DNA of 64,000 nt, taken from the IMG/VR virus record IMGVR_UViG_3300045988_160394, positions 96,001 to 160,000 of that record; one strand, given 5' to 3'. Positions 31,018 through 49,310 of this stretch are shown piece by piece. The position numbers were made by a program, and so were the translations under genes. Each line of letters opens with the position of its first letter. The stretch's first letter is position 1. The notes beneath the pieces are model-generated. The model saw only the letters and a program-made list of their open reading frames with translations, made no database searches and was not told where the DNA came from. The DNA is from a virus.

Positions 31018-31021
31018 TTTA

Positions 31022-32444: not shown

Positions 32445-32479
32445 TTAACCACACAAATATATATGTTAAATCAACAAAA

Positions 32480-32510
32480 AGACTAGAAGGTTTTATCCCT
32501 CTAGTCTTTT
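32480..32510. terminator. bidirectional intrinsic terminator
   Basis: agactagaagg-ttttat-ccctctagtct has T runs on both strands. It lies between the + strand RNA region and the stop of the convergent dnaE copy 2. Confidence 0.75.
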
Positions 32511-35500: not shown

Positions 35501-35849
35501 TATAAGGTTTTATCAATTCGTTAATTTCTTTTTTAGTTGCTTTTCTAGGTATTTCTATTCCGTTTTTTATTGCTTCTTCTTGTGCTATTTTTGTTCTTTT
35601 ATCTAATGGTAAAGATATCATATCTCTATCCCATGTCCAATATAATTCAACTCCTAATAATGGTTTTATTCCATTCTCCTTACAAGCTGATTGAAACTCC
35701 AATACTCCACCTAAATGATTATGATCTGTTATAGCTAATGCCTTCATATTTAACTCTTTAGCTCTTAATACTCTTTCTAATGGACTTCCCATTCCATCTA
35801 GTAAACTGTAATGAGTATGACAATGTATATGCGTAAAGTTCTTTTCCAT
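32514..35849 (-). CDS. dnaE: DNA polymerase III alpha-subunit homologue (DnaE type), copy 2
   Basis: Canonical PHP HIHCHTHYSLLDG, PGRGSAAGSLVLFLLGI, catalytic LPDVDVDF, FNKSHAACYS. All 14 Trp codons are TGG. Confidence 0.9.
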   Translation of the reverse strand: MEKNFTHIHCHTHYSLLDGMGSPLERVLRAKELNMKALAITDHNHLGGVLEFQSACKENGIKPLLGVELYWTWDRDMISLPLDKRTKIAQEEAIKNGIEIPRKATKKEINELIKPYMYDTKGYHIILIAKNQIGWHNLVKIQSEASEKGLFNARFHCDNELLKKYSEGIICTTACIGSVIANSIKHGKIDTAEKILTEWKEIFGKENLFVEIQGLDWEVQKEVNIELIKLAKKLDLKIIATNDVHYTRQSDIDDHDTLLCIGLGKKKDEIDRMRYEPEFWMRSYDEMVNAFKRLAPNEEYMEEVIKGLENTNLIAEMVDGDIRLKSEKPLFTEVKLPKGYTSEKYLTYKCWKKLYKYLAKHPEYDRREYEARLNWELYVINKKGYAPYMLTVDEFIFWSNSNKIPTGPGRGSAAGSLVLFLLGITKVIDPIQNGLLFSRFLTMDRTALPDVDVDFCYYGRDRVIEHMEEVYGEECVAHIGTYSELGVKSGVRDIGRVLDMPYAITDEISKKITVITDEAPSISFKDLDEYEKTDPEKYRQFKEIENEYPELFRLARRFEGTKRNFGVHASGILTTPNPITDTFPIRIDPDTGVKVTLYTGPQVEECNGVKYDFLGLKTVSVIDKAMHSIDETLEWEDLYKTVELDDEGVFDMICNKETEAVFQIESDLFKGIISDMQPTSMDDIVVLTSIGRPGPLQAGMHTKYNNRKNGLEEIVMPVHDTEDIVGDTFGTIVYQEQVMAIAKKIAGFDDNQADSYLRKALAKKKQAIMDLCKRWLIYGKKNEEAPKGYDNNNPNCTMYDPSAKYGAPILGASNNGYDIKDLEAFWADMEGYASYLFNKSHAACYSYITLLTAYLKRYYPVDFFASVLSVQDDEKKRVKYIPVVEDMGLQVELPDINISNKDFTPLPENFKILYGLGSIKGVGENAVKEILKIRKESGEFTSLQDMMDRIPKKFLNKRVGEALIKSGALDKFNTNRNALLNEFYTLRKDKIEIMPTADTYDEKVCMDYETKTLGLPITYKPWWDEVETNQTIEIEATVVSNRELIDKNGNMMSFPKIESEGVTIPCVAFARTYCANSDKFEVREDRPQPTLIIKGKKDSRKQLIISSVKLK

Positions 35850-35883
35850 AAAATTTTCTCCCCCACTTCTAATCTATATTTAT

Positions 35884-35912
35884 ATTATACGTATTATACG
35901 TATAAAAGTCAA
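35884..35912 (-). promoter_or_regulatory. sigma-A-type promoter with palindromic operator in the spacer (copy 1)
   Basis: Minus strand: TTGACT-N17-TATAAT. The spacer contains TATACGTAT-A-ATACGTATA (35886-35904). Lies upstream of dnaE copy 2. Confidence 0.65.
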
Positions 35913-35914
35913 TA

Positions 35915-35956
35915 AGAAAAATAAAGACTCCGCTACTTTTTATTATAGCGAAGTCT
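35915..35956 (-). terminator. intrinsic terminator
   Basis: Minus strand: agacttcgc-N14-gcggagtct (9 bp) followed by ttattttt. Sits directly after the fibre gene stop. Confidence 0.7.
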
Positions 35957-35969
35957 ACATTATAAAATA

Positions 35970-36695
35970 TTATTCAGGATGATGTTGTGCAATTTTTTGT
36001 TCTAGTTGAGTATACTTACTTTGTAATTCTGTATACTTAGTTACTAGTTCGTTAATTGCTCCTACTATTGTTTTTGCTGTAGTAGTTAATGTTTCATCAT
36101 TTTTCTTTTGATAAGATTGTAAATCAGCAGCAGGACCAGTAGCACCTTGAGCTCCTGCATCTCCTTTAGGTCCTTTAAGTTCTGTAAGAGCTATTAATTG
36201 TTGCCAACTATCAGTTCCTGCATATTGCCATTCAATATGAGTATCACCTTTTTTAAGTTCTATTTGTTTTCCGTCTGCACCTTTTTGTCCTGCAACACCT
36301 TGCTCTCCCCTAGGGCCAGTTTCTCCTGTATCTCCTTTAGCTCCAGGAGCACCATTTTCACCTCTAGGTCCTTGAGGGCCTACAGCACCAGCTTGACCAG
36401 GATCACCTTTTAATTCAGTTAAAGCTATTAATTGATTTCATAGGTCAGTTCCTTTGTATCTTCATTCAATATGAGAACTACCTTTTTGTAATTCTATCTC
36501 TTTACCATCGACACCATTTTTACCAGCAGGTCCAACTGGTCCTTGAGCACCTGTTTCTCCTGGTTGTCCTTTAAGGTTTTTAGTTATTAAATCCATAGTA
36601 GTTGTCTTAGTGGAACCATCTTGTAATATAAGCACATTATCTGCCCCTTTAACAGATACAGCCTTTGGTAATTCACTCATTTTTATTCTTTCCAT
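35970..36695 (-). CDS. collagen-like (Gly-X-Y) tail-fibre protein, 241 aa, two in-frame TGAs
   Basis: 36462..36695 continues in frame through TGA at 36462 and 36438 to TAA at 35970. Contains G-X-Y runs (GQPGETGAQGPVGPAGKNGVDG; GDPGQAGAVGPQGPRGENGAPGAKGDTGETGPRGEQGVAGQKGADG) and a duplicated IEW.Y.GTD.W.QLIALTELKG module. Confidence 0.8.
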
Positions 36696-36714
36696 ATTTA
36701 TTTCCCCTTTACTG

Positions 36715-36927
36715 CTATACTAATACATCATTATTATCTTCTGTTACTATTAATTTTTCATCTTCAGTAATTAGAAGTCTATCTTGTGGAGTATTTATAA
36801 CTTCACCTTTTATAATTTTCATTACATCTCTTCCATCAGAAGTGACAAGACTTCCTTTTTTAAACATAACACTACCTTGTATTTTGGTACCTTGATCTAA
36901 GGTCATGTGTAATGGTGGTCATGCCAT
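36715..36927 (-). CDS. hypothetical protein (70 aa); TGA is codon 3
   Basis: ATG 36927 follows AGGGGTG. Reads M-A-[TGA]-PPLH and continues into ORF-track 36715..36906. Confidence 0.45.
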
Positions 36928-36982
36928 TATTAATCACCCCTTTATACATTAAATATAAAGGAGAAAATTAATTCTCCTTTAT

Positions 36983-37147
36983 TTATCTTGCTGGTCTATT
37001 TGGTAGCTCTGGTATATAAGTAGCATCTTTGTTTTGTGCTTTATATACTTTCTTTTGCCACTTAGCAATATCTAAAGTATATGGGTCCTTATAGTCTGAA
37101 CTAGATTTAGTCATAGTTCCATTTCCAAAGTATTTTCCTTTACTCAT
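36983..37147 (-). CDS. small hypothetical protein (54 aa)
   Basis: ATG follows AAGAGGTG and the ORF ends TAA. Below the ORF-track size cut-off. Confidence 0.4.
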   Translation of the reverse strand: MSKGKYFGNGTMTKSSSDYKDPYTLDIAKWQKKVYKAQNKDATYIPELPNRPAR

Positions 37148-37183
37148 TATTAAACACCTCTTTATTAGCTTTTAAAAGCTTAT

Positions 37184-38449
37184 TTATTTTTGTACATATT
37201 TAGCTGATACGTATCCTTCTTTTTTGCCTTTAGAAGTATCGTATTGGATATAATACCATCCATCTTCAGTCCATTTGATTAGAACTTTTTCTCCATTAAA
37301 AACCTTACCTATTACTGAACCATTAATATCGCTTCTTACATTTAAATAAGAATTAACTTTAACTGTTCCGTATACTGGCTTAGATTCTTGATAGAATTTA
37401 GTTCCTTGTTCTCCCTCATAACGAACGTATCCGTCAGAAGGAGTACCGTCCTCTCTATAGAATGTGATACGTAATCTTCCATCAGTTCTATACATTGGAC
37501 TGCATTTTTGATGAGGTTGTAAAATTTCATTATGTTCAGTTACGTTAACATCACCTGCTGACCACCAAACATAAGTTACTCCTCCATCATTAATATATTG
37601 CTTATGATAATCAAATTGCAATCTGTTGTATTGATCTATACTAATATAAGCATGATATTTCTTGCTTCCACCAGGATAAACTAATTCAACATATTTACGA
37701 GAAGGATAAATACCAACTACAAACACTTCGTCGAAAGGTGAAATATATCTTCCTTGTACTGGATTACAGTTTTGATCAAGTACTTGTATATTTCCTTGTC
37801 CTACGATTTTAGCATTAGTTCTCTTTTCATTAGATTCATAGAATCCAGGATTAGAAGAACTTGATACATTATTACTAGAATTAGATGAAGTTGTATTTCC
37901 TCCAGCTATTGCACTATTAGCTATACCTTCTGCTATTAAATTACCAATCTTCTCTGGTCCTGCTTGATGATATAGTCTAACATCTTCTGTAGCTTCACAG
38001 AAACATACTTCAACGATAACAGCTGGCATTGATGTTTTTCTTAATTCATATAACTTAGCATTAGTTTTTACACCTCTGTTTTTAAGTCCAGTTCCATTTG
38101 CCACACTGTTAACTATTCTCTTAGCAATAACTTCTGCTTGTCCACCTAGACCACACACCCATGTTCCAGTACCTAAAGCACCTTCATAATGGTTATAAGC
38201 TTTATCAAAGTGAATACTTATAAATAGATCAGCTCCTCATCCTTCTGCTTTATTAACGCCATAAGCAAGGTCTTCATTAACTCCGCAATTACCAGGAGTA
38301 ACGTCTAGGACTTGATAACCTGCTTTTCTTAAACTGTTAATAACAGCTACATAAACTTTTCTATCTTCTACTGTTTCATTGATTAATGCAGATGCTCCAG
38401 CAGCTTGAAAGTTATGTCCACCTCTTACAGCTATTTTTCTAATTGACAT
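37184..38449 (-). CDS. endolysin: N-acetylmuramoyl-L-alanine amidase (Amidase_3) with C-terminal SH3 domain, one in-frame TGA
   Basis: 38237..38485 and 37184..38158 share one frame, joined by TGA at 38237 (codon 71). Start ATG 38449 follows AAGGAGGA. Motifs: GGHN, [TGA]GADLFISIHF, MPAVIVEVCF. SH3 region: NVRSDINGSVIGKVFNGEKV...GWYYIQY...GYVSAKYV. Confidence 0.85.
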
Positions 38450-38480
38450 ATTAAATTCCTCCTTCATAATATGCAATAAG

Positions 38481-38512
38481 CACATTACAACTATATATTA
38501 CCTTGTAATGTG
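38481..38512 (-). terminator. 10-bp hairpin between recJ and the endolysin (possible attenuator or terminator)
   Basis: cacattacaa-N12-ttgtaatgtg. The downstream T run is weak. Confidence 0.4.
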
Positions 38513-38549
38513 CTTATAATTATATTATATTAAATTTATTAACAAATTT

Positions 38550-40337
38550 TTATGCTGGAATTATTTGCTCTACACTAAATGTATAATATTTAGGATTTCT
38601 AAAGTCAGGAACTAATTTGCCAATTAAATGAACTTTATTAGGCGAACCTAATCTTTTATATTCATTCATTTTATTCCATACCCATATTTCTTTACCTACC
38701 ATTTTGCCGTATCTATTCTTTTTAGCTTTACATGTATTATCTTCTAAGTTTAAACATAAGTGATCAGGATTATTACTTGAAGATCTAGCTTCTAATACAT
38801 CTAAGTTTTTAATAGCAAATATAGGTTCTTTTAATGTTCCGAAGAATAACATTTCATCATAATCTTTTACAGTAGCTTTCTTTATATCTTTTAATTCTAT
38901 AATGTCATCTACTTCTATAGTTATGTCTTGTTCTCTTTCTATTACTCCTGCTTCTGTTTTAGTTAATATTATAGCCATTAATAGCTCATTAAGTGATTGT
39001 CTTAAATCATCTATTTTATTTATATCAACTATTACACCTGCTGCTCCATGGTGTCCTCCAAAGTTTATCATATTGCCTTTTTCAACTTCATATTTAAATA
39101 ATTCATGTAAATTCAAACCTTCTACAGATCTAGCTGAACCATGTACTATTGTACCATTGCCTCCTAATAATATAACTGGCTTATTATAAGCTGATATCAT
39201 TTTAGAAGCTACTGTTCCACCTACTCCTCCTAGATTAGCAACATGTTCTACTATAAATAAATCTTTACTATAATCCTTTTTTATTAGCTCATCATATATA
39301 TTCTTTTCTAAAGCTTTTCTTTCATCATTAAGATTAACCATATGATTATATATATCTTCTAAATCATCTTCATCTTCTGCATTCATAAAGTCTAAAGCTA
39401 ATTGTATTTCTCCCATTCTACCACAAGCATTTATTTGTGGCCCTATGTCAAAACCTATATCAGTTATAGATATGTCTTTATTTATATAATTCCTATAATA
39501 CATAAGAGCTTCTTTTGCAAATCCTTGTTTCATTTGCCATAATCCTAATCCAACTATTCCTACGTTTTCTTGAGTAGTTGGCATTACATCTGTTATAGTT
39601 GCTATAGTTGCATTTGGTAAGTAATTAAATATAAAACTTTCATCTGCTTCAAATAATTCTAATACTCTACCGAATACTTTATAAGCTACACTTGCACCAC
39701 ATAAACCTAATGCATTTTCATTATCTGTATCATGTAACCATGGATCTACTACTAAGCAATCAGGAACTTCACCTTTTTTAGGAGCATGATGATCAGTTAT
39801 TATAACTGTAATTCCTTTTGATTGTAGATATTCTACTTCTTTATATTTAGTAATACCATTATCAACTGTCATAACCAAAGTTTCTTTTTTAACTTTCTTA
39901 GGAAAAGTCTTTTTACACCAGTCTAATGATAAACCGTATCCTTCAAATCTATTAGGTACTTTTATATTGATATTAACTTTAGATTCTAATGCTTCTTTAA
40001 TAGCTGTTAAAACTCCATTAGCTATACTAGTAGACATTATACCATCGCAATCATAATCTCCATATACATATATTTCTGCATCATCATTGCTTAATACTTT
40101 AGCTATTATTTCAGCTGCTTCTGTAGAATTAGTTATACTATCGTGACCACCTATAGCAAACTCATCTGTTTGTATATATTTATATAATTCTTCTTTTTCA
40201 TAGCCCCTATTTAATAATAAAGATACTACACTTTCTGTTGTCTTTAATTCTCGTGCTATCTTTTTTACTTCTTCTTTATTTAGATTCTTGTCTCTCTTTA
40301 TTATATTTATCATTAATTTCTCCCCATTTCTCTTCAA
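38550..40337 (-). CDS. recJ: RecJ-like single-stranded-DNA exonuclease (DHH/DHHA1)
   Basis: YGDYDCDGIMS, ITDHHAP and GGHHGAAG. The start may be the internal ATG at 40313. Confidence 0.85.
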   Translation of the reverse strand: MKRNGEKLMINIIKRDKNLNKEEVKKIARELKTTESVVSLLLNRGYEKEELYKYIQTDEFAIGGHDSITNSTEAAEIIAKVLSNDDAEIYVYGDYDCDGIMSTSIANGVLTAIKEALESKVNINIKVPNRFEGYGLSLDWCKKTFPKKVKKETLVMTVDNGITKYKEVEYLQSKGITVIITDHHAPKKGEVPDCLVVDPWLHDTDNENALGLCGASVAYKVFGRVLELFEADESFIFNYLPNATIATITDVMPTTQENVGIVGLGLWQMKQGFAKEALMYYRNYINKDISITDIGFDIGPQINACGRMGEIQLALDFMNAEDEDDLEDIYNHMVNLNDERKALEKNIYDELIKKDYSKDLFIVEHVANLGGVGGTVASKMISAYNKPVILLGGNGTIVHGSARSVEGLNLHELFKYEVEKGNMINFGGHHGAAGVIVDINKIDDLRQSLNELLMAIILTKTEAGVIEREQDITIEVDDIIELKDIKKATVKDYDEMLFFGTLKEPIFAIKNLDVLEARSSSNNPDHLCLNLEDNTCKAKKNRYGKMVGKEIWVWNKMNEYKRLGSPNKVHLIGKLVPDFRNPKYYTFSVEQIIPA

Positions 40338-40476
40338 CTATAATCTCTATAACTTCATTTAACCCTCTTATGTTTTTATTCTCTCTTTTTTTATATATTT
40401 TAATAAACTCTAATTGCTCTATTGTCGATGGTTTAAGAGTAGTAGTAAACTTTTGTCTATCTTCTTTCTTTTTCAT
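40276..40476 (-). CDS. small basic protein, possible ribbon-helix-helix DNA binder
   Basis: First ORF after promoter copy 2. Sequence: KFTTTLKPSTIEQLEFIK...GLNEVIEIIVEE. RBS AGGAGGAAA. Confidence 0.4.
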   Translation of the reverse strand: MKKKEDRQKFTTTLKPSTIEQLEFIKIYKKRENKNIRGLNEVIEIIVEEKWGEINDKYNKERQESK

Positions 40477-40514
40477 CTTATTTCCTCCTGCTCTTTGTAT
40501 CTTCCTTATTTATA

Positions 40515-40543
40515 ATTATATACGTATCATACGTATATGTCAA
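40515..40543 (-). promoter_or_regulatory. consensus sigma-A-type promoter with palindromic operator (copy 2)
   Basis: Minus strand: TTGACA-N17-TATAAT. The spacer holds TATACGTAT-G-ATACGTATA (40519-40537). Confidence 0.7.
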
Positions 40544-40549
40544 TAAAAA

Positions 40550-40579
40550 AATAAGATAAGGTAAAAAGCTTATCTTATT
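40550..40579 (-). terminator. intrinsic terminator
   Basis: 11-bp stem aataagataag/cttatcttatt followed by a T run on the minus strand. Sits directly after the sigma gene. Confidence 0.75.
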
Positions 40580-40585
40580 CTATAT

Positions 40586-41479
40586 TTATATTGTAGGAAG
40601 GCTAGCTTTTCTACCAGAGTTCCTACTTCTTTTTAATTGTTCTTTACTATAATTAGATTGATTACAAAGCTTATTAATAGCTTCACGTCTTCTTTGATTA
40701 ATGGTATTTATATGAGCTCCAAAATATTCTGCTATTTGTCTATCGTTTCAGTTTTCTAAATAATACTTAACAAGTATTTTTCTTTGAAAAGTAGATAAGC
40801 TTACAAATAGTTTTCCACATGTTTGACCATTTAATCAAGACAAATCAGGCAACCCTGTTATCATTTCATAATTATTATCTAAATTCTCTACAACTGATTT
40901 TTCAGTATCTATTGCTGTTGTTCAATCTTCAAATACATGATTCTTATAATTAATACTTAATGGATCTTTGATTCATTTTTTTATATGTCTGCCAACTTCA
41001 TGTTTGAAAACATTGTGTACATATGCACAAAAGTTTTTTCCTACGTTCTTATATCTTTTAGCTAATATTAAAAGACACATGCTTAAATCAGAAATTATAT
41101 CTTCTTCAGTATTTGCTCCGTATGTTTTTGTTACAAAATTGAATTTATTATAAGCACTAGCTCTATTTTCAGCATTTATCTTTTTTCTATATAATGCTTT
41201 TTTTAGTTCATAATCGTCAACAAATAAAGCTACGAATTCTTTTGTTTCTTTATCAGTTCAGTCTATGATTAAATGCTTTATAACTTGTATATATTTTCAG
41301 AAGAGAGGAGAAAACCTTGCTAATAGAATGTTACCGCATTCATCAGCATATTTCTTTTCAACCTCTGTACAGTCATTACTAAATTGTGCTTGAAAATGTA
41401 ACACTAAAGCTTCAATCTCATCTCACTCTTCTTTAAGTTCTTCTTCACTTTTAAAACCTAAATTAGTGAGTTTATTCAT
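40586..41479 (-). CDS. sigma-70-family RNA polymerase sigma factor (297 aa); all 7 Trp codons are TGA
   Basis: Checked codon by codon: open from ATG 41479 (RBS AAGGAG) to TAA 40586, with TGA at 40748, 40835, 40922, 40973, 41258, 41297 and 41423, and no TGG. Region 2-like EEDIISDLSMCLLILAKRYKNVGKNFCAYVHNVFKHEVGRHIKK. Region 4 HTH LSTFQRKILVKYYLEN[W]NDRQIAEYFGAHINTINQRRREAINKL. Confidence 0.8.
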
Positions 41480-41498
41480 TTTCATTCTCCTTTATTTA

Positions 41499-42095
41499 TT
41501 AATCATCACTTAATATATCTAATATTTGAACAAATATATTTATTATATCTAAATACATATCCATTACATGATTTAATATATTATCATCATCCATGGCTCT
41601 ATTCTTTTTAATTTCATTTTTAAACTTATTAAAATCATATGCTACATATCCGCAGAATAATAATACTATTACATATGCTAAGAATGGCATATTAACAAAC
41701 ATGCTTATTAAAGATAATATTAATACTACTATTAAACATGCAAAAAGAGTGCTACCTAGTCCAGATAAGTCTTTTGTTAACAGCCCTATTATCATGAATA
41801 TTACTACCATAGCTATTGTAATTCCTATAGCTGATAATATAATACTTATATTTATTGTTGTACTTTTTAATATTATTTGAGCTATTAACATACCTTCGGT
41901 AAAGTTAAATATAAAAAACAGTATCTTTTTAATTACTCCTTCACTAAATAAAAAAGCTAGCATTAATATTAAAGATGCTGCTATTAATATTACTACTTTA
42001 ACTGTACTTAAGAGAGGACTTAATAAAGCCCCTACAAAAGTTACAATTAAAGACAGTATTAAATACATAAAATATTTTATATAATAATTCTTCAT
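41499..42095 (-). CDS. BAX-inhibitor-1/YccA-family (TMBIM-like) integral membrane protein
   Basis: About 6-7 hydrophobic spans. The C-terminal MYLDIINIFVQILDIL matches the family signature LYLDIINLFL. Confidence 0.65.
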   Translation of the reverse strand: MKNYYIKYFMYLILSLIVTFVGALLSPLLSTVKVVILIAASLILMLAFLFSEGVIKKILFFIFNFTEGMLIAQIILKSTTINISIILSAIGITIAMVVIFMIIGLLTKDLSGLGSTLFACLIVVLILSLISMFVNMPFLAYVIVLLFCGYVAYDFNKFKNEIKKNRAMDDDNILNHVMDMYLDIINIFVQILDILSDD

Positions 42096-42107
42096 TACAG
42101 TCTCCTT

Positions 42108-42653
42108 TTATTTTTTCTTTTTTAATTTCTTCTTCTTTTCCCATTCAGAATACTCTAACCATTTCTTTTCAGAGTTATCCCAAATAACACACATAAAATC
42201 AATATCAGGGTATCTAAACTTAAGCATCTTTTCTTTTAGTTTGAAATCAGCAGTTTTAATACCTTTTGGATCGATTGTCTTTTTAGATCCATCTGCATAT
42301 GTTACTTCAAAGTCAGATATATATTTAATAGCTTGTACTATTTCAATCTTATCTTCTGGATTAGCTTTATTCCATGCTAATCTTTTTTTATTTAATTCTT
42401 TATATTTAGGATGTTCTTCTGTAACACAAAATCCATTCATAATAAAGAATTTAGGTTGTAATACATATACTGGTTGACACTTAATATCTTTAACTCTACC
42501 AGCTTTCTTTTCAGCTTTTAAATATAAATAGTATTCTGCTTCCATTTTAGAATCGAATGTTCTACCATCTATTGTAGTTTTAATATGCTTTATTTTACCT
42601 TCTGATTTCTTTTTTGTTCTTCTTCTTCTAAATGCCATTTTTAAATCCCCCAA
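42108..42653 (-). CDS. DUF1064-like endonuclease-fold protein
   Basis: DGRTFDSKMEAEYYLYL, ISDFEVTYADGSKKTIDPKG and FKLKEKM match the DUF1064 pattern (recalled). The likely start is ATG 42638. Confidence 0.6.
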   Translation of the reverse strand: MGDLKMAFRRRRTKKKSEGKIKHIKTTIDGRTFDSKMEAEYYLYLKAEKKAGRVKDIKCQPVYVLQPKFFIMNGFCVTEEHPKYKELNKKRLAWNKANPEDKIEIVQAIKYISDFEVTYADGSKKTIDPKGIKTADFKLKEKMLKFRYPDIDFMCVIWDNSEKKWLEYSEWEKKKKLKKKK

Positions 42654-42662
42654 TTAAAATTA

Positions 42663-42773
42663 TTATTTGCTTTTCTTTTTAGTATCTTTTTGTGTATTAG
42701 TCTTAGTTGTTTTTTTTGCTGTAGGTATTGGATTAAATCCTACTTCTTCTTTTAAGTAAATTCCTTTAGCCAT
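42663..42773 (-). CDS. small Lys-rich peptide (36 aa)
   Basis: ATG follows GGAGGTG and the ORF ends TAA. No other support. Confidence 0.3.
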   Translation of the reverse strand: MAKGIYLKEEVGFNPIPTAKKTTKTNTQKDTKKKSK

Positions 42774-42790
42774 TATATTCACCTCCATTA

Positions 42791-43504
42791 TTATTCATCT
42801 TCATTGCCTGTCCATGATTTGCATAAATCTCTAACTATACATGATGTACATAGAAAAGTTTCTCTTGGATATATTATATTATTTTCTAAACATATCCCTA
42901 TATTAGTTAGTATACTCTTAAGTCTTGTAAAATCTTTCACTGATCTTAAAGTTTGCATTGTTTTCCCTTGTGCAGGTACATAATATGTTATAACTACATC
43001 TTTGTTAAACATTTCTCTAATAGCATAAGCATCAATAGTATGTTTTAACATCATATCTATTGTAACTCTATCAGGTATAGCTTTATCAAATGATACTATA
43101 AATAATTCTATATAATTTTCTCTATCTATCATAGGTGGTAATTGTCCTGTTAGTTTTATTTTAGTACCTGGTATTTCTATAGAATAAGCTAAGTTAACTT
43201 CTGTAAAGTTTAATCTATTTAATGTTACATACTCATATGTTCTATATAATAAACCCCATCCTTCAAGAATCTTTTTAGGATTAAGTATATCTGTATTTTC
43301 TTGAGCAACTTTGTCCCATTTCTTTTTTAAAGTTATACTGTCAGCTTTCATACCATTACATTTAGAAGCTAACCATTGATTAATTGTCTTAGAAGCTAAT
43401 TTTTTATAACTTCTTTCACTACCAATATCTATTCCCTTTTTTATAAGCTCATATCTTAAAGGACATTTTAAATATTCAAATAATTCTTTTTCCTTTAATT
43501 CCAT
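42791..43504 (-). CDS. Cas4/RecB-like PD-(D/E)XK nuclease with Cys cluster
   Basis: N-terminal YLKCPLRY and C-terminal CTSCIVRDLC give a Cas4-type 4-Cys arrangement. ATG 43504 follows AAGAGGTGA. Confidence 0.6.
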   Translation of the reverse strand: MELKEKELFEYLKCPLRYELIKKGIDIGSERSYKKLASKTINQWLASKCNGMKADSITLKKKWDKVAQENTDILNPKKILEGWGLLYRTYEYVTLNRLNFTEVNLAYSIEIPGTKIKLTGQLPPMIDRENYIELFIVSFDKAIPDRVTIDMMLKHTIDAYAIREMFNKDVVITYYVPAQGKTMQTLRSVKDFTRLKSILTNIGICLENNIIYPRETFLCTSCIVRDLCKSWTGNEDE

Positions 43505-43525
43505 AATTATCACCTCTTGTTTTAT

Positions 43526-43554
43526 ATTATATACGTATGGTACGTATATGTCAA
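43526..43554 (-). promoter_or_regulatory. consensus sigma-A-type promoter with palindromic operator (copy 3)
   Basis: Minus strand: TTGACA-N17-TATAAT. The spacer holds TATACGTAC-C-ATACGTATA (43530-43548; one mismatch to the palindrome). Confidence 0.7.
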
Positions 43555-43580
43555 CAAAAAAAGAAAAGGCTATTAAGCCT
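43555..43580 (-). terminator. putative intrinsic terminator
   Basis: aggct-taat-agcct followed by a T run on the minus strand. The stop codon of the upstream gene lies in the loop. Confidence 0.5.
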
Positions 43581-44166
43581 CTTCATCTTCTTTAGTTACT
43601 GAGAATATTTGAAATAATTCATCACCAATTACTCTTGTTAACCATATAGCAGTAGCAAATAAATCTTGTGGAGAATTAGGAGATGGTTTAGTTTTAGCCA
43701 TTGGAGTACAATCTCCTAATTGACCTTCTATTGTATCCCAAATCATTTCTCTAAATTGTTCTGGAATTGGTCCGAATTCATAATCATCCATATCTGCTAT
43801 CTCATCAAATTCTTGTCTAGCTTTTAATAAAGATGAGATATTTGGGTCGAAGCCTATAGAATATTCATCAAAGCTTTCTTCTTTGCCATAATAAGCATTG
43901 TGTAAAAATGCTGCTACTAATAAAGAGTCTACATATGTTTGATGATTAGTTTTAGTTAATAATTCTTTTCTTATTAATAAATCTAATACTATTTCAGCTA
44001 CTTTGTTATTATAATCGTTTGGAGTTATATTAGCCTTTTGCATACATCTTTTACAAAATAATTTATAATCATCTACTTTTATAAATTCTACAAATCTATA
44101 TAAATCTTCTCTATTAGCTAATTCAGGAAACATTTCTCTAGCTCTTAACATTTTATCTTTATTCAT
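43573..44166 (-). CDS. hypothetical protein (197 aa)
   Basis: Intact ORF ending TAA. No motif assigned with confidence. Confidence 0.5.
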   Translation of the reverse strand: MNKDKMLRAREMFPELANREDLYRFVEFIKVDDYKLFCKRCMQKANITPNDYNNKVAEIVLDLLIRKELLTKTNHQTYVDSLLVAAFLHNAYYGKEESFDEYSIGFDPNISSLLKARQEFDEIADMDDYEFGPIPEQFREMIWDTIEGQLGDCTPMAKTKPSPNSPQDLFATAIWLTRVIGDELFQIFSVTKEDEEA

Positions 44167-44401
44167 TTATACTACCTCCACTAACAACTGGTTGATTTAT
44201 AGTCATATTTTCTGGATAAGCAACTGCTTCTTTTCTTTCAGCGTTCTTACGTCTCCAATCATATACTTCATTTCTTAATTGTTCTAATTCATCATTAGCA
44301 TCTTTTAATCTACTTAATAATATAGCTTCATTTATATTTGATTGAGCTATTCTATTACCTAATTCAGTTATAATTCTTTCGTAATTCAATTCTTGTCCCA
44401 T
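44159..44401 (-). CDS. hypothetical coiled-coil protein (80 aa)
   Basis: Intact ORF with RBS GGAGGA. Confidence 0.45.
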   Translation of the reverse strand: MGQELNYERIITELGNRIAQSNINEAILLSRLKDANDELEQLRNEVYDWRRKNAERKEAVAYPENMTINQPVVSGGSINE

Positions 44402-44403
44402 AA

Positions 44404-44658
44404 TTAAATATCCTCCATTAAATTATCTAAAATTATTTTATTCTTTGTAATTATTTTATTTATCTTTCAACCTTCATGTAATTCCTTATTACATATGTTA
44501 TAATTTTTACCTCTATTATCATCTTCTAATTTACATTCATAACATTCAGGATCTCTACTGTCATATGCTCTACACCCATAACATAAAGGGCATTGTTGAT
44601 AATTAATACAATGTATCTTATTGCCCCTTACGGATGATGGTTGTTTTATATTATTCAT
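44404..44658 (-). CDS. small Cys-rich protein (84 aa) with one in-frame TGA
   Basis: ORF-track 44467..44658 ends in TGA. The frame continues for 20 codons to TAA at 44404. Confidence 0.45.
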
Positions 44659-44968
44659 TTCTAGTAGCCTTTTTTATATAGTTTATAACTTCTTCTTCAG
44701 TACCATTTTTGATTAAGTCAGAAGGTATTTCTATATAATCTTTTCCTTCTATTAATGTATCTTTATGAACTAAAACATAATCTCCTAATAGTTCTTGAAA
44801 ATGGTCTAAGCATAAGCAGTATTGTAATCCATTTATATGAATTTTAAATATCTCTTCATTTTCTAATGTCTTGTCTATTTTTTCAAAAGGTTTTATACAT
44901 TTTAGGCAGAAATCATTCTTTTCTCCCATTTGTATACCGTCTCTTACTATCTTTTCAAACATTGCCAT
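44651..44968 (-). CDS. hypothetical protein (105 aa)
   Basis: Intact ORF with RBS GGAGGA. Confidence 0.45.
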   Translation of the reverse strand: MAMFEKIVRDGIQMGEKNDFCLKCIKPFEKIDKTLENEEIFKIHINGLQYCLCLDHFQELLGDYVLVHKDTLIEGKDYIEIPSDLIKNGTEEEVINYIKKATRNE

Positions 44969-45045
44969 TTTAAAATTCCTCCATTTAATTTTAATTTATT
45001 GTTTATATATATTAATTATATGCGTAATATTATTGGTTAATCTTA

Positions 45046-46161
45046 TTAAGCTTCAAATAATAATGCATTAAATCTTCTAGTAGAATCTGCATTACATTCT
45101 CTTGCTCTAGACATTTCAGGTGCAAAGTAACAGAATGATCTTCCTTTATAGCTAGATTTTTTGTTCTTAGCCCAATCGAACTCTATTATAGGAAGTTTTT
45201 CTTCTACTCCTTCTACTCTTTGGAATATCTTAGCTGCTTGTTTGTTTTTAGATACATCGTTAAATAATAACCATATAACAGATGCTTCGTAAACAAGTAC
45301 GTTAGAGTCTTTTAAGTCATCTAGTGTAGGTCTTCTATTTCCATTAAGCTTTCTTAAATGAACTGATGAGAATATAGGGCAATCATATTCTACTGTCCAA
45401 TGCTTTACTTCTCTAGCTATATAATCAGAAGCTTCATTAGTAGTTTTTATATTATAAACATCATCTAATACTATATCTTTTATAGAGTCTATTGCTATTG
45501 CTATATTCATTTCTGGATCTATTGCTTTTACATAATTATATACTTTATCTATATAAGCTTTCATTTGATTTAACGTTCTTACTTTAGTAGAATCAACTAT
45601 CATCATTTTATTACCATCAGCTTTTAAATTGTTTATACCTACTTCTCTTTTAGCTAATTCTTCTATTAATAAAGAAGCTTCTTCATGGTTATTATCTATC
45701 ATATTTTTAGCTCTTTGTGGTTTAGCTACTGTAGATATTCTTATTCCTTCTCTCATAGCTATAACTCTTGGTATTATTTCATGTTTACTATCATCTAATG
45801 AAAAGTATAATCCAAATAATTTGTTAGGTTCATGCATTACTAAATCTTCTAATATGTTCATCATCATAGCTGATTTACCTGCATTAGATTCAGCAGGTAA
45901 TAAATATAATCCACTATCTAATCCTTCTAATTTTGAAGATATCATAGGAAATCCTGGAGTAGAATAACCGTCTCCTTTGTTCCATGATTTTTCTTCAAAC
46001 TCTGCTAAGTCTTCTTCCATTACTGAAAAGAAGTCTTCTGCTTGTACTATTCCTTCATCTTCTTTTATTAACTCTATATCTTCTTTTCCTTCATTTAAAT
46101 ACTTTTCTATTTCTTCCATTGCTTTTTTCCCGTTTGCTATATTTTCTGGTACCATTGTCAC
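45046..46161 (-). CDS. DnaB-like / RecA-fold replicative helicase
   Basis: Walker A AESNAGKS, Walker B MMIVDS and a DnaB C-terminal-domain-like layout. Lies immediately downstream of the AEP primase. Confidence 0.65.
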   Translation of the reverse strand: MTMVPENIANGKKAMEEIEKYLNEGKEDIELIKEDEGIVQAEDFFSVMEEDLAEFEEKSWNKGDGYSTPGFPMISSKLEGLDSGLYLLPAESNAGKSAMMMNILEDLVMHEPNKLFGLYFSLDDSKHEIIPRVIAMREGIRISTVAKPQRAKNMIDNNHEEASLLIEELAKREVGINNLKADGNKMMIVDSTKVRTLNQMKAYIDKVYNYVKAIDPEMNIAIAIDSIKDIVLDDVYNIKTTNEASDYIAREVKHWTVEYDCPIFSSVHLRKLNGNRRPTLDDLKDSNVLVYEASVIWLLFNDVSKNKQAAKIFQRVEGVEEKLPIIEFDWAKNKKSSYKGRSFCYFAPEMSRARECNADSTRRFNALLFEA

Positions 46162-46177
46162 TATTACTTCCCCCTAA

Positions 46178-47188
46178 TTATATCTTTCTTACTGGACATC
46201 CTTTTACACATATATCTAATCCTATAAAAGCACTACATCCATATCTTTTACCACTCATCACATTTTTGTATGCACTCTTTACTGTATTTTCTAATTCTCT
46301 ATCAGATAAAGGCTCGTCTAACTTTGTTTCATTTCATTGTTTCATTATATCAAGTATTTTTTCCTCATTACTAGAATCTCTTTGATATAATGCACTAGCT
46401 AAAGCCATAGCCGTATTATTCCTTCCACCTTTAACAGCTCCATTTTGAAGTATATATTTTACACATGGTAATAACTCTTTATTAGCTAACATATTTCTAG
46501 CTACTCTATGGTTTATACTTCTTTTTTGTCTATTCTTTATATCTTCTACAAATATATCAAAAGCTTGTCTACTTTCAGGCTTATATTCTTTATTTATTTC
46601 TAATAAAGGTCTTTCTTCAGAAGCATATTCTGTTAAGTCTAAATAATTCATTACTCTTAAATCATTTAACTTTATTCCTACTTTATGTAAGCCTGTTTTA
46701 CTATTAATAGAATTTACTTCTCTAAATAATCTTTTATGCTCATATATTTTTGTATCTACTGATTTAGTTATTGTATAGCTTTTTAACTCTATGGCTATTA
46801 ATTTATAAATAGCATCTATACCTTTATCAAAGTCTAATCCAAATATTTGATAAGGAATTATAATATGAAAACCCTTTGAGCCACTAAAATATAATTCTAT
46901 ATTATTGTCATCTAATTTAAAGGTTGTCTTTATTTTTCTCATTATTAATAGAACATCTCTTTTTAGTTTTTCAAAATCTCTTTCTAAATTATCAGCATCT
47001 AAATCTATATATAAAGGAGCTCTATAATTAGCAGTATCTTGATTAACATCATCATACTCATATATAGTACTATAAGTATCTTTAAAATTGTATTTTTTAA
47101 TAGCTTTGTCTTTATCTTTTTTATCTATTATAATATTTCTTCTAAACATACCATTTATTTGTCCGCCTATCTCTATATAAGTATTCAT
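46178..47188 (-). CDS. archaeo-eukaryotic-type primase-polymerase (AEP) with PriCT-like C-terminus, one in-frame TGA
   Basis: YIDLDADN and SGSKGFHIIIP are AEP motifs. ORF-track 46334..47188 ends in TGA, and the frame continues for 51 codons (..SAYKNVMSGKRYGCSAFIGLDICVKGCPVRKI) to TAA 46178. Confidence 0.65.
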
Positions 47189-47189
47189 T

Positions 47190-47879
47190 TTATTTCCTCC
47201 AAACTATTTTATTAGCACCTTCATATTCTGCTTGTTCTATCATCTTATCAAACTTCTGTATTACTTCTTTAGCATACTCTTCTATTTCAAATACTTCTAG
47301 TATCATTTCTCTATCTATATCATTACTAGCTGCTTCTATTAATGATATCACATAATCTATACCTGGAGCTTTAAATTTATCATATTTGTTTATTAAAAAC
47401 ATTAATGCTCCTTTTACTTTTTTGTCGTCTTGTAGATTTAAAGGTATTCTACATTTTTCATAGTAGTAATTCATTAAATCATCTATAGTAAAGTTTATAA
47501 TCATTTCTAAATAAAACTCTTCACATGTTTCTTCAAATGTTATAGGATTCCATGTAGGAGGTTTACTTTTTAAATGTAATATTTCTGAATAATAAAATTT
47601 ATTTTTTTCTAATAAAGAAACATTCCATAATTCATTTGGCAATTCATCAAATGATATGTAATTCTTTGTATTCGGTTCTACAATCACTTCATTATTAAGA
47701 ACTATTTCTTTATTTTGTTTTCTTTGTTGTTCTATAGCACAAAATATTAAAAATATACCTTGGGCATTCTTATTATTATCCTTTAAATAATTAGCCACGG
47801 CTAAAGTTTTTTCAAACTCTTCTTTTGTAGGCTCTATTCCTACAAATGTAGAATAGTATTTATAAACCAATTCTTTCAT
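47190..47879 (-). CDS. hypothetical protein (229 aa)
   Basis: Intact ORF with RBS AAGGGGAGAG. First gene after operator copy 4. Confidence 0.5.
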   Translation of the reverse strand: MKELVYKYYSTFVGIEPTKEEFEKTLAVANYLKDNNKNAQGIFLIFCAIEQQRKQNKEIVLNNEVIVEPNTKNYISFDELPNELWNVSLLEKNKFYYSEILHLKSKPPTWNPITFEETCEEFYLEMIINFTIDDLMNYYYEKCRIPLNLQDDKKVKGALMFLINKYDKFKAPGIDYVISLIEAASNDIDREMILEVFEIEEYAKEVIQKFDKMIEQAEYEGANKIVWRK

Positions 47880-47896
47880 ATAACAACTCTCCCCTT

Positions 47897-47921
47897 CTTA
47901 TACGTATGATACGTATGTCAT
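47897..47921 (-). promoter_or_regulatory. palindromic operator copy 4 with degenerate -35/-10
   Basis: CATACGTAT-C-ATACGTATA on the minus strand (47899-47917; one mismatch to the palindrome). The flanks are ATGACA and TATAAG/TAAGAA with a shortened spacer. Confidence 0.45.
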
Positions 47922-47934
47922 GAATTTATTATAT

Positions 47935-47970
47935 AATAAAAAAAGAAAAAAGGCAATATAATAATTGCCA
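47935..47970 (-). terminator. intrinsic terminator ending the virion module
   Basis: Minus strand: ggcaat-tattat-attgcc followed by ttttttcttttttt. Confidence 0.75.
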
Positions 47971-47973
47971 ATT

Positions 47974-49071: not shown

Positions 49072-49310
49072 TATTTTGCCTCCTTAAACATAATTAGTTT
49101 TTTATAACATTTCTCACTAGAACCATATGGCCCTGTAGATTTTATATATAAATCATTTACTATACTTTCTAATTCTTTTATTGTCTTATAAGATTGTATA
49201 TTATCAAAGTCATCTAAGAAATCATTAGCATCGTTAGAATATTGTAGAATATTTAATATGAATTTATCATACTCATAAGGACCTCTATATCTCATATTAT
49301 AATGTATCAT
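49071..49310 (-). CDS. hypothetical protein (79 aa)
   Basis: Intact ORF. Start and stop overlap the neighbouring genes. Confidence 0.45.
   Translation of the reverse strand: MIHYNMRYRGPYEYDKFILNILQYSNDANDFLDDFDNIQSYKTIKELESIVNDLYIKSTGPYGSSEKCYKKLIMFKEAK

What the first reader, a model, noticed from the sequence alone, without database searches (positions are those of the whole stretch)
35884..47921. Four leftward transcription units share a terminator followed by a promoter whose spacer is a conserved 19-bp palindrome
On the minus strand, copy 2 (40515-40543) reads TTGACA-TATACGTATGATACGTA-TATAAT. That is a perfect -35, a 17-nt spacer and a perfect -10, with TATACGTAT-N-ATACGTATA filling the spacer. 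Copy 1 (35884-35912) has TTGACT as its -35. Copy 3 (43526-43554) has one palindrome mismatch. Copy 4 (47897-47921) keeps the palindrome with one mismatch but has degenerate -35 and -10 boxes. Each copy sits directly after an intrinsic terminator. The units begin with dnaE copy 2, a small RHH-like ORF plus recJ, a Cas4-like nuclease (the unit that also contains the sigma factor), and ORF 47879. A dyad between -35 and -10 is the classic position for a dimeric repressor. The small RHH-like protein at 40276..40476, first gene of unit 2, is a candidate autoregulator.
Basis: seen in the sequence. Interest (0 to 1): 0.7.

Follow-up and report, generated by a model that had tools for sequence, protein, structure and literature searches.

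The report
Phage early-promoter operator for RHH repressor
Four strong host-type promoters that drive the DNA-replication genes of an uncultivated large phage each carry the same 19-bp operator, most likely the binding site of a small self-regulating phage repressor; this is a well-known kind of switch, found here in an undescribed protein family and phage group.

Summary
TATACGTAT-N-ATACGTATA occurs four times (0, 0, 1 and 1 mismatches; 0.05 expected). All four copies lie on the minus strand, each after a terminator hairpin. Copies 1-3 fill the 17-nt spacer of the only near-consensus sigma-70 promoters in the window. Copy 4 lies about +5 to +23 downstream of a weaker promoter, TTGCCT-17-TATAAT.

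The conserved core is TATACGTA-YNR-TACGTATA: two self-palindromic ACGT boxes 5 bp apart. This is the geometry of the CopG and Arc ribbon-helix-helix (RHH) operators.

The 66-aa protein at 40276..40476 has no Pfam or PHROG match. It founds a family of about 190 members with an invariant K-F-T-T-T-L strand, and its only PDB match is CopG (weak).

In all 16 related phage loci checked (37-97% protein identity), the gene sits just upstream of recJ, behind a dyad promoter. The dnaE, Cas4-like and ORF-229 promoters keep the dyad while their flanks have diverged. A sister clade lacks both the protein and the dyad.

Best reading: an autoregulated RHH repressor, bound as a dimer of dimers, that shuts off the early replication operons. 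This is a new member of a known kind.

Seen in passing: the phage reads TGA as Trp, and the sigma gene has 7 TGA and no TGG.

The parts
35886..35904 (.). Operator O1 (TATACGTATTATACGTATA), in the spacer of the dnaE promoter
   Evidence: The orthologous dnaE promoters in L002, L012-L014, L017 and L237-L240 keep it.
35884..35912 (-). Promoter P1, TTGACT-17-TATAAT. The dyad starts 2 nt after the -35, and its last 4 nt form the first 4 nt of the -10.
   Evidence: 11 of 12 matches
35925..35956 (-). Terminator hairpin plus T-run that closes unit 2, immediately upstream of P1
   Evidence: (-18.6 kcal/mol, z -6.7)
32514..35849 (-). Unit 1: DNA polymerase III alpha (second dnaE of the window), followed by a terminator at 32477-32510
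   Evidence: PHP, DNA_pol3_alpha, finger, HHH_6
40519..40537 (.). Operator O2 (perfect dyad), in the spacer of the RHH-recJ promoter
   Evidence: Conserved upstream of the RHH gene in all 16 related loci checked.
40515..40543 (-). Promoter P2, TTGACA-TATACGTATGATACGTA-TATAAT
   Evidence: 12 of 12 matches
40549..40580 (-). AT-rich terminator hairpin plus T-run that closes unit 3
   Evidence: -10.4 kcal/mol, z -4.4. The scan misses it because the stem has fewer than 3 GC pairs.
40276..40476 (-). 66-aa RHH-like protein, the candidate repressor and first gene of unit 2. It has a good RBS, and its 3' end overlaps the recJ start by 38 nt.
   Evidence: invariant KFTTTL strand and N-E-V-I-E helix; only PDB hit is CopG, E 0.12; hhalign against CopG, P 1.8e-4; two helices predicted
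38550..40313 (-). recJ (DHH/DHHA1/RecJ_OB). The start is taken as the ATG at 40313, by comparison with L005.
43530..43548 (.). Operator O3 (TATACGTACCATACGTATA on the minus strand), in the spacer of the Cas4-like promoter
   Evidence: The orthologous promoters in L015, L013/14, L016, L019, L020 and L238-L240 keep it.
43526..43554 (-). Promoter P3, TTGACA-17-TATAAT
   Evidence: 12 of 12 matches
43563..43584 (-). Terminator that closes unit 4
40586..43504 (-). Unit 3: Cas4-like nuclease (42791-43504), DUF1064 (42108-42653), Bax1-I membrane protein (41499-42095) and sigma-70-type factor (40586-41479, with 7 in-frame TGA read as Trp)
47899..47917 (.). Operator O4 (CATACGTATCATACGTATA on the minus strand), between a promoter-like site and the RBS of ORF 47190..47879
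   Evidence: The same position is conserved in L015, L016 and L237.
47928..47956 (-). Candidate promoter P4, TTGCCT-17-TATAAT. Its -35 lies in the 3' arm of the terminator at 47952-47969, and the dyad sits at about +5 to +23.
   Evidence: 10 of 12 matches; for the hairpin
43573..47879 (-). Unit 4: ORF 229 aa (47190-47879), primase with PriCT_1 (46178-47188, one TGA read as Trp), DnaB-like helicase (45046-46161), three small ORFs and a 197-aa ORF

Best explanation
The 19-bp element is a transcriptional operator. Its conserved form is TATACGTA-YNR-TACGTATA: two self-palindromic ACGT boxes 5 bp apart (9 bp centre to centre), forming a 13-bp symmetric core.

The most likely binder is the 66-aa ribbon-helix-helix-like protein encoded at 40276..40476. 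One dimer would insert its K-x-T-x-T beta-ribbon into each box, so two dimers would sit side by side as a tetramer.

At P1-P3 the operator spans about -29 to -9, between the -35 and -10. A bound protein there would exclude host RNA polymerase or block open-complex formation. At P4 it would sit just downstream of the start site.

The repressor gene is the first gene behind P2, so the circuit is a negative autoregulatory loop. Host sigma-A polymerase fires four terminator-insulated early units: ORF229-primase-DnaB, Cas4-like-DUF1064-sigma, RHH-RecJ and DnaE. The repressor accumulates and then turns all four down together. Later genes would depend on other promoters, and possibly on the phage sigma factor made from unit 3.

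**Shown by computation:** the sites, their promoter and terminator context, their evolutionary conservation, and their linkage to the gene.

**Inferred:** the fold, the binding, the stoichiometry, repression and timing.
For: **Non-random and placed at promoters.** 4 sites against 0.05 expected, inside or next to the only near-consensus sigma-70 promoters in 64 kb, each after a terminator.

**Phylogenetic footprint.** When the 110 nt upstream of the RHH start are aligned across 13 loci, only the -35, the two (T)ACGT(A) boxes and the -10 are invariant. The central YNR and all flanks vary. The same operator sits at the orthologous dnaE, Cas4-like and ORF229 promoters in relatives with 37-97% RHH identity.

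**Linkage to the gene.**
- All 11 loci where an HMM search finds the family have a dyad, or a variant with 1-4 mismatches, within about 70 nt upstream of the gene.
- The same holds for L004 and for L237-L240, which were fetched through family members. That makes 16 of 16 related loci.
- The sister clade L010/L011 is syntenic (dnaE 51%, sigma 48% identity) but lacks both the gene and the dyad.

**Protein.**
- The strand K-F-T-T-T-L and the helix start N-(E/D)-V-I-E are invariant or nearly so across about 190 members.
- The only PDB sequence hits are the RHH repressor CopG (1B01, 2CPG; E 0.12). They align KFTTTL...L..L with RLTITL...L..L.
- hhalign against CopG gives P 1.8e-4. Cro, Arc and ParD give nothing.
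- AlphaFold2 predicts helices at 16-31 and 39-51.
- The top Foldseek hits are RHH-type folds, but are not significant.

**Operator geometry.** It equals that described for CopG and Arc: 4-bp boxes 5 bp apart, a 13-bp symmetric element overlapping the promoter, and one dimer per half (PMC2724298).

**Independent association.** The same promoter-operator cassette drives hicAB operons (L003, L021, L022, L054, L078, L093, L117, L119). Their HicB C-terminus is a solved RHH domain with a [K/R]-x-[T/N]-x-[T/S] strand.
Against: - There is no experimental binding or transcription data.
- The RHH fold is not established. There is no Pfam or PHROG hit. The CopG match covers only 24 residues at E 0.12. 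The AlphaFold2 monomer model has pLDDT 72 and no strand. The Foldseek E-values are about 7.
- Profile comparison with the HicB RHH domain, Arc and ParD finds nothing.
- The dyad is not specific to RHH proteins. It also lies beside Phd/YefM-, MarR- and Xre-type genes in bacteria, so a different binder is possible.
- The co-loss of gene and dyad rests on one sister clade, which is effectively a single evolutionary event.
- P4 is a weak promoter call.
- The host, and therefore its polymerase specificity, is unknown.
Confidence: 0.65

Rival explanations
1. The dyad is an operator, but it is read by a host-encoded regulator. Candidates include a HicB-type RHH antitoxin or a Phd-, MarR- or Xre-type protein that recognises the same palindrome. 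Under this reading the phage RHH-like protein does something else.
For: The identical cassette TTGACA-TATACGTA(N3)TACGTA-TATAAT drives hicAB operons in Lachnospiraceae, Faecalibacterium and lactobacilli. The dyad also lies beside Phd-, MarR- and Xre-type genes, so bacterial proteins with this specificity probably exist.
Against: The dyad and the phage gene are present together in all 16 related loci and absent together in the sister clade. The first gene behind one of the operators is a small protein with an invariant DNA-reading-type strand, which is the classic autoregulator layout. The host is unknown, and no host regulon with multiple sites appeared in 185,579 genomes: nearly all hits are one per contig.
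Confidence: 0.12
2. The dyad is an operator for a different phage-encoded protein that has not been identified. This could be a small ORF of unit 4 or a gene outside the window. The RHH-like protein would then merely be one of the regulated genes.
For: Several small ORFs in the regulated units have no annotation. The window is only part of a genome that is probably 150-260 kb long.
Against: None of those ORFs shows a DNA-binding signature. The tight physical coupling of the operator to the RHH gene, and the match of the operator geometry to RHH operators, are not explained by this reading.
Confidence: 0.12
3. No repressor is involved. The alternating pyrimidine-purine spacer would tune promoter strength or DNA flexibility, or the TACGTA/ACGT boxes would be restriction-modification or methylation targets.
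For: Each half is a perfect alternating Y-R run. TACGTA is over-represented in the window as a whole, at 21 occurrences against 4.9 expected.
Against: Sequence-specific invariance of both boxes across 37-97% diverged relatives, while the centre and flanks drift, is typical of a protein site. At P4 the dyad is not in a spacer at all. The register relative to the -35 varies by 0-2 nt while the dyad itself is kept.
Confidence: 0.06

Closest known systems
CopG (RepA) repressor and Pcr promoter of plasmid pMV158
   Same: - A minimal RHH protein of 45 aa, encoded as the first gene of the operon it represses.
- Its operator overlaps the promoter and consists of two copies of a self-palindromic 4-bp box (TGCA) 5 bp apart, forming a 13-bp symmetric element with one dimer per box (PMC2724298).
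- It is the only PDB sequence match of the phage family, and it aligns the R/K-x-T-x-T strand.
   Different: - The box sequence is ACGT here, not TGCA.
- There are four promoters in a phage replication module rather than one plasmid copy-control promoter.
- The phage protein is 20 residues longer, with a conserved basic C-terminal tail.
- Homology is weak (E 0.12).
Arc repressor and Pant of Salmonella phage P22
   Same: A phage-encoded RHH that is the first gene of the operon it shuts off. Its operator overlaps the promoter and is bound by two dimers on 4-bp boxes 5 bp apart. It acts by blocking open-complex formation (PMC2724298).
   Different: Arc controls one locus, the divergent Pant/Pmnt pair in the immI region of a temperate phage. 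Its boxes (TAGA) are not self-palindromic. No sequence similarity was detected.
MetJ and tandem metboxes (AGACGTCT) of E. coli (from general knowledge)
   Same: Tandem self-palindromic boxes with a central ACGT, one RHH dimer per box, with cooperativity between neighbouring dimers.
   Different: The spacing is 8 bp and there are 2-5 boxes. MetJ needs the co-repressor S-adenosylmethionine and controls a chromosomal regulon. No homology was tested beyond the PDB search, which did not return MetJ.
HicB antitoxins with a C-terminal RHH domain (e.g. S. pneumoniae HicB, PDB 5YRZ)
   Same: Their hicAB operons in 8 loci carry the same TTGAC-dyad-TATAAT cassette. Their RHH strand has the same [K/R]-x-[T/N]-x-[T/S] pattern.
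   Different: The phage protein has no HicB N-terminal domain and no adjacent toxin, since recJ follows it. No profile similarity was found. The one HicB operator studied experimentally (PMC6159526) is not a TACGTA dyad.
Omega repressor of inc18 plasmids such as pSM19035 (from general knowledge)
   Same: A small RHH that coordinates several promoters through repeated short boxes.
   Different: Omega uses 7-bp heptads in variable number and orientation, and it is a plasmid system. It was not compared here.

Membership tests
Ribbon-helix-helix (MetJ/Arc/CopG) transcriptional repressors | Detectable sequence or profile similarity to a solved RHH protein | tested here: inconclusive
   An HMM of the family against the PDB returns only CopG (1B01, 2CPG), at E 0.12 over 24 residues. 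hhalign against CopG gives P 1.8e-4 and probability 49%. There are no hits to Arc, ParD or the HicB RHH domain, and no Pfam or PHROG family matches.
Ribbon-helix-helix (MetJ/Arc/CopG) transcriptional repressors | Beta-alpha-alpha topology: an N-terminal strand with alternating polar and hydrophobic residues that pairs across the dimer | tested here: inconclusive
   The AlphaFold2 monomer model (pLDDT 72) gives helices at 16-31 and 39-51 after an extended stretch at 9-14, K-F-T-T-T-L. The intersubunit sheet cannot form in a monomer model. The top Foldseek hits are a VapB RHH and a TCP domain, at E about 7.
Ribbon-helix-helix (MetJ/Arc/CopG) transcriptional repressors | Operator made of short repeated boxes about one helical turn or less apart, one dimer per box, overlapping the promoter | tested here: met
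   There are two self-palindromic ACGT boxes 5 bp apart, forming a 13-bp symmetric core. This is the geometry reported for CopG and Arc. The element lies between the -35 and -10 at P1-P3.
Ribbon-helix-helix (MetJ/Arc/CopG) transcriptional repressors | Cooperative binding of the protein to the operator as a dimer of dimers | not testable with these tools
   This needs EMSA, footprinting or ITC, or a multimer-plus-DNA structure prediction.
Autoregulated repressor | The repressor gene is transcribed from a promoter that carries its own operator | tested here: met
   The RHH start codon lies 38-70 nt downstream of a dyad promoter in the window and in all 16 related loci.
Sigma-70 (sigma-A) type promoter | TTGACA and TATAAT hexamers separated by 16-18 nt, intergenic and correctly oriented | tested here: met
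   P2 and P3 match 12 of 12, and P1 matches 11 of 12, all with 17-nt spacers. For copy 4 the feature is met only by an upstream site with 10 of 12 matches. Activity was not tested.
Intrinsic terminator | A stable hairpin followed by a T-run directly upstream of each promoter | tested here: met
   Three are found by the scan. All four fold with z-scores from -3.1 to -6.7.
Type II toxin-antitoxin module with an RHH antitoxin | A small RHH gene paired with an adjacent toxin gene | tested here: not met
   The downstream gene is recJ (DHH/DHHA1, about 587 aa) in every locus. No toxin family was detected.

The most novel reading that the evidence does not exclude
The phage early promoters and bacterial hicAB toxin-antitoxin operons share one promoter-operator cassette, TTGACA-TATACGTA-N3-TACGTA-TATAAT, and RHH reading heads of the same K-x-T-x-T type. 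This could mean regulatory cross-talk during infection.

Two directions are possible. The phage repressor could keep a host hicAB defence operon silent. Alternatively, a host HicB could silence the phage's replication operons, so that an antitoxin would act as an anti-phage transcriptional repressor.

A second layer may also exist. The sigma-factor gene inside one regulated unit uses only TGA for Trp, so its translation might be gated separately from its transcription.
Probability: 0.07. Interest if true: 0.75.

Novelty: new member of a known kind. Interest (0 to 1): 0.42.

Why it matters
**Testable regulatory model.** The result gives a concrete model for early-gene control in a widespread but uncultivated group of large phages. 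Their contigs reach 266 kb, and one family member alone is seen on more than 200 contigs. The model comprises four insulated host-type promoters, one operator and one candidate repressor of 66 residues.

**An unannotated protein family with a predicted target.** The family has about 190 members and no Pfam or PHROG model. It now has a predicted DNA target, which makes it easy to test and to annotate.

**Possible use as a genetic part.** The compact promoter-operator pair (29 bp) and tiny repressor could also serve as an orthogonal genetic part in Firmicutes-type hosts.

**Limits on novelty.** The mechanism itself would not surprise a specialist. It repeats the Arc/CopG design.

Tried and rejected
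- **Cultured relatives.** Megablast of 35000-48500 against GenBank phages found no match. A protein search with DnaE finds only hits at 35% identity or less, and the RHH protein finds none. There is therefore no cultured relative or host.
- **Annotation of the RHH protein.** Pfam and PHROGs return nothing for it or for 25 family members.
- **Homology to other RHH proteins.** Profile comparisons with the HicB RHH domain, Arc and ParD were negative, as was the Cro control. Homology to those proteins is therefore not claimed.
- **Structure search.** Foldseek with the monomer model gave no significant hit.
- **Literature.** A full-text search for ATACGTAT returned nothing relevant. The S. pneumoniae HicB paper uses a different DNA and gives no support for TACGTA recognition.
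- **Genome-wide scan.** The relaxed dyad gave 105 hits in 596 Gb. About 140 are expected for 16 fixed bases at uniform composition, so overall enrichment in bacteria cannot be claimed. Only the contexts are informative. Relaxing the centre also pulled in a different palindrome class, TATACGTAA-N-TTACGTATA, beside RelE/HigB-like genes.
- **Fur-family box idea.** A 7-1-7 or 9-1-9 Fur-type box was considered from memory. It was dropped because the sequence does not match the Fur, PerR or Zur consensus and each half is itself palindromic.
- **RNA hairpin reading.** This was rejected because copies 1-3 lie upstream of their own start sites.
- **Larger duplicated cassette.** This was rejected because the terminators and leaders of the four copies are unrelated.
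- **Suppressor tRNA.** None was found. ARAGORN finds no tRNA in the window, and the tRNA-like element has a disrupted anticodon arm.
- **Non-coding region.** Folding of 31020-31320 shows no excess stability.

Full report
**1. The observation**

The pattern TATACGTAT-N-ATACGTATA, allowing up to 3 mismatches, occurs exactly four times in the 64-kb window:
- 35886-35904 (0 mismatches)
- 40519-40537 (0)
- 43530-43548 (1)
- 47899-47917 (1)

Shuffles give 0.05 expected, and none of 100 reaches four.

Read on the minus strand, copies 2 and 3 are TTGACA-(17)-TATAAT and copy 1 is TTGACT-(17)-TATAAT. The consensus scan ranks these three as the best correctly oriented sigma-70-type matches in the entire window, at 12, 12 and 11 of 12.

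The register is not identical. In copies 2 and 3 the dyad starts right after the -35, and its last two bases open the -10. In copy 1, and in all orthologous dnaE promoters, it starts 2 nt later, so four of its bases belong to the -10.

Copy 4 has no usable hexamers around the dyad. A promoter-like TTGCCT-17-TATAAT lies upstream at 47956..47928, with its -35 inside the 3' arm of the preceding terminator. This places the dyad at about +5 to +23. The same layout recurs in L015, L016 and L237.

Each copy is preceded by a hairpin plus T-run. Three are found by the scan. The fourth is an AT-rich stem. All four fold better than shuffles, with z-scores from -3.1 to -6.7. The terminators and leaders of the four copies are unrelated in sequence, so only the promoter-operator core is shared.

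**2. Anatomy of the site**

ATACGTAT is its own reverse complement. The '19-bp palindrome' is therefore equally two copies of a self-palindromic box, 9 bp apart.

Across 24 non-redundant sites from the window and its relatives, positions 9-11 vary (T/C, any base, A/G). TATACGTA and TACGTATA are essentially invariant. This set was selected with the motif, so the invariance is partly circular.

The non-circular test is an alignment of the 110 nt upstream of the RHH start codon from 13 loci. There the only invariant or near-invariant columns are TTGAC, TACGTA, ACGT(A/G)T and A(T/C)AAT. Terminator stems, leaders and RBS spacing have all diverged.

The core is therefore two ACGT boxes 5 bp apart, forming a 13-bp symmetric element with the dyad axis on a central base pair.

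**3. Gene context**

With TGA read as a sense codon (see section 7), the minus strand from 47.9 to 32.5 kb is a compact replication module. It is cut into four terminator-insulated units:
- **P4/O4:** ORF 229 aa, primase (PriCT_1), DnaB-like helicase, small ORFs.
- **P3/O3:** a protein with the Cas4-type cysteine pattern C...CxxCx5C, DUF1064, a Bax1-I membrane protein, and a sigma-70-type factor.
- **P2/O2:** the 66-aa protein, RecJ, and further downstream an amidase endolysin.
- **P1/O1:** a DnaE, the second in the window.

Upstream of the terminator before P4, the same strand carries long tail-fibre-like genes.

Other intergenic regions lack a -35 and show TATAAT(A)TAAT-like -10 motifs only. 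The dyad promoters are therefore a distinct class.

**4. The candidate binder**

The 66-aa product of 40276..40476 has no Pfam or PHROG match. Homologue searches give 18, then 192 proteins, all from metagenomes and many on contigs of 150-266 kb. An exhaustive HMM search of 1.84 billion cluster representatives finds only 20. The family is thus small and restricted to this phage group.

K-F-T-T-T-L and the start of the second helix, N-(E/D)-V-I-E, are invariant or nearly so.

Evidence on the fold:
- Against all PDB sequences, the family profile matches only the RHH repressor CopG, weakly (E 0.12). Residues 7-30 align with CopG 2-25.
- hhalign gives P 1.8e-4 for CopG. It gives nothing for Arc, ParD, the HicB RHH domain or the Cro control.
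- AlphaFold2 (pLDDT 72) predicts helices at 16-31 and 39-51 after an extended N-terminus. This is what an RHH monomer should look like without its partner strand.
- The two Foldseek hits are RHH-type folds (VapB and a TCP domain) but are not significant.

The RHH assignment is therefore plausible but not proven.

**5. Linkage of protein and operator**

The gene always precedes recJ and overlaps its start.
- An HMM search over all 236 fetched loci finds the family in 11 of them. Each has a dyad, or a variant with 1-4 mismatches, within about 70 nt upstream of the start codon.
- L004 shows the same arrangement.
- Four more distant members (37-51% identity; L237-L240) show the same arrangement. 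They also carry dyads at the orthologous Cas4-like, dnaE and ORF229 promoters.
- Together these make 16 of 16 related loci.
- A syntenic sister clade (L010/L011; DnaE 51%, sigma 48%, RecJ 31% identity) has neither the gene nor any dyad within +/-10 kb. Its genes are packed without these terminator-promoter junctions.

**6. Comparison with known systems**

As summarised in PMC2724298, the CopG and Arc operators overlap their promoters. Each consists of two 4-bp boxes 5 bp apart (TGCA, itself palindromic, for CopG; TAGA for Arc), giving a 13-bp symmetric element. One RHH dimer binds each half. copG is co-transcribed with its target from the repressed promoter, and Arc blocks open-complex formation at Pant.

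The phage element has exactly this geometry, with ACGT boxes. The aligned reading-head positions are K9, T11 and T13, against R4, T6 and T8 in CopG. The role of those CopG residues is from general knowledge.

An independent hint comes from scans of public viral and bacterial contigs. The very same cassette (TTGAC-dyad-TATAAT) drives hicA-hicB operons in at least eight loci. The C-terminus of those HicB proteins matches the solved RHH domains of HicB (5YRZ, 9SVK) and carries a [K/R]-x-[T/N]-x-[T/S] strand.

The dyad is not exclusive to RHH proteins, however. It also lies next to Phd/YefM-, MarR- and Xre-type genes. The total number of bacterial hits (105) is about what 16 fixed bases give by chance in 596 Gb. 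The one experimentally studied HicB operator is a different sequence.

**7. Side finding that affects the annotation: TGA is read as Trp**

The sigma gene (40586..41479) has 7 in-frame TGA and no TGG. At two of those positions the TGA-free orthologue in L011 has Trp. At three it has Tyr or Phe, and at none Gly.

With TGA read as Trp:
- The endolysin matches Amidase_3 end to end.
- The primase gains its PriCT_1 domain across the TGA.
- Several pairs of abutting ORFs fuse.
- The gene map becomes gap-free, with 40 TAA, 12 TAG and no TGA stops.

Usage is very uneven. TGA against TGG counts are:

| Gene set | TGA | TGG |
|---|---|---|
| + strand genes | 8 | 85 |
| DnaE | 0 | 14 |
| Sigma factor | 7 | 0 |
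| Two tail-fibre-like genes | 10 and 11 | 5 each |

**8. Verdict**

There are three refinements:
- Two self-palindromic boxes probably bind two dimers.
- At copy 4 the operator lies downstream of the promoter.
- The fold has only weak direct evidence.

The most likely mechanism is an Arc/CopG-like autoregulated RHH repressor. It would coordinate the shut-off or homeostasis of four early replication operons transcribed by host polymerase.

My confidence is about 0.85 that this is a protein operator repressing these promoters. It is about 0.65 that the binder is the 66-aa protein.

This is a new member of a known kind, in an unannotated family and an uncultivated phage clade. It is useful and readily testable, but not surprising in mechanism.

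Noticed in passing
whole window; clearest at 40586-41479 (sigma), 37184-38485 (endolysin), 46178-47188 (primase), 49310-63915 (tail-fibre-like genes): TGA is a sense codon, most likely Trp (genetic code 4).
- No gene needs TGA as a stop: there are 40 TAA and 12 TAG stops.
- Every TGA 'stop' under code 11 is followed by a continuing frame.
- Pfam domains span the TGA codons.
- L011, which lacks TGA, has W, Y or F at the aligned positions.

Usage is very uneven. The sigma gene has 7 TGA and 0 TGG. Two fibre genes have 10-11 TGA each. dnaE has 0 TGA and 14 TGG.

Whether the host itself uses code 4, or the phage recodes, is open.
   Followed up: partly
32370-32441 (+): A tRNA-like element scores 45 bits against the Rfam tRNA model, but ARAGORN rejects it. 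Its anticodon arm has 14 nt where 11 are expected, and no UCA or CCA anticodon is in register.

It is orthologous, with conserved flanks, to a normal tRNA-Trp(CCA) next to dnaE in relative L017 at 9427-9500.

It may be a decayed or unusual tRNA-Trp, in a phage that reads TGA as Trp.
   Followed up: partly
31020-32460 (+), with 31183-31266: About 1.4 kb between the two convergent gene blocks has no convincing ORF and a somewhat higher G+C content (0.33-0.37 against 0.28). It contains a full-length match to the skipping-rope RNA motif (RF02924, 57.6 bits). No other Rfam family matches, and 31020-31320 shows no excess folding stability.
   Followed up: partly
L003 4577; L021 6469; L022 6712; L054 3708; L078 5186; L093 1325; L117 2703; L119 2630: The same promoter-operator cassette (TTGAC-TATACGTA-N3-TACGTATA-TAAT) drives hicA-hicB toxin-antitoxin operons. 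These are found in Lachnospiraceae, Faecalibacterium, lactobacilli and a 53% G+C viral contig. The HicB proteins have a C-terminal RHH domain.
   Followed up: partly
L030, L040, L042, L046, L059, L067, L076, L089, L097 (proteobacterial contigs): A related but distinct palindrome, TATACGTAA-N-TTACGTATA, lies 2-27 nt upstream of a conserved 114-aa RelE/HigB-like gene (MKA(I/V)F(V/I)ELPAFERHR...). It is presumably the operator of another toxin-antitoxin family.
   Followed up: no
18143-21217 (+) and 32514-35849 (-): The window holds two full-length DnaE (Pol III alpha) genes on opposite strands. Only the minus-strand one is behind a dyad promoter. The + strand block also carries nrdD, a UvrD helicase, an SNF2 helicase and an AAA ATPase, and has no consensus sigma-70 promoter.
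   Followed up: no
L012 3877-7476; L013 7032-9325: In relatives the orthologous dnaE is called as two or more pieces (690 + 401 aa, and 453 + 160 aa) with gaps of 300-450 nt. This could reflect an intervening element or in-frame TGA codons.
   Followed up: no
38505-38535 (-), 53270-53295 (-), 12410-12425 (+), 13845-13860 (+), 25665-25680 (+): Many other intergenic regions show a TATAAT(A)TAAT-like -10 motif without a -35. This may be the promoter class used later in infection, perhaps with the phage sigma factor.
   Followed up: no
41499-42095 (-); L015 8630-8884: A Bax1-I (BI-1-like) integral membrane protein gene sits in the early unit with the sigma factor. It is truncated in the close relative L015.
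   Followed up: no
L007 8980-9175: In an unrelated viral contig (42% G+C), three tandem units (ATACGTAT-A-ATACGTAT-A-ATACGGTA) lie immediately upstream of a 50-aa gene. That gene has a weak ParD (RHH antitoxin) match, E 7e-4.
   Followed up: no
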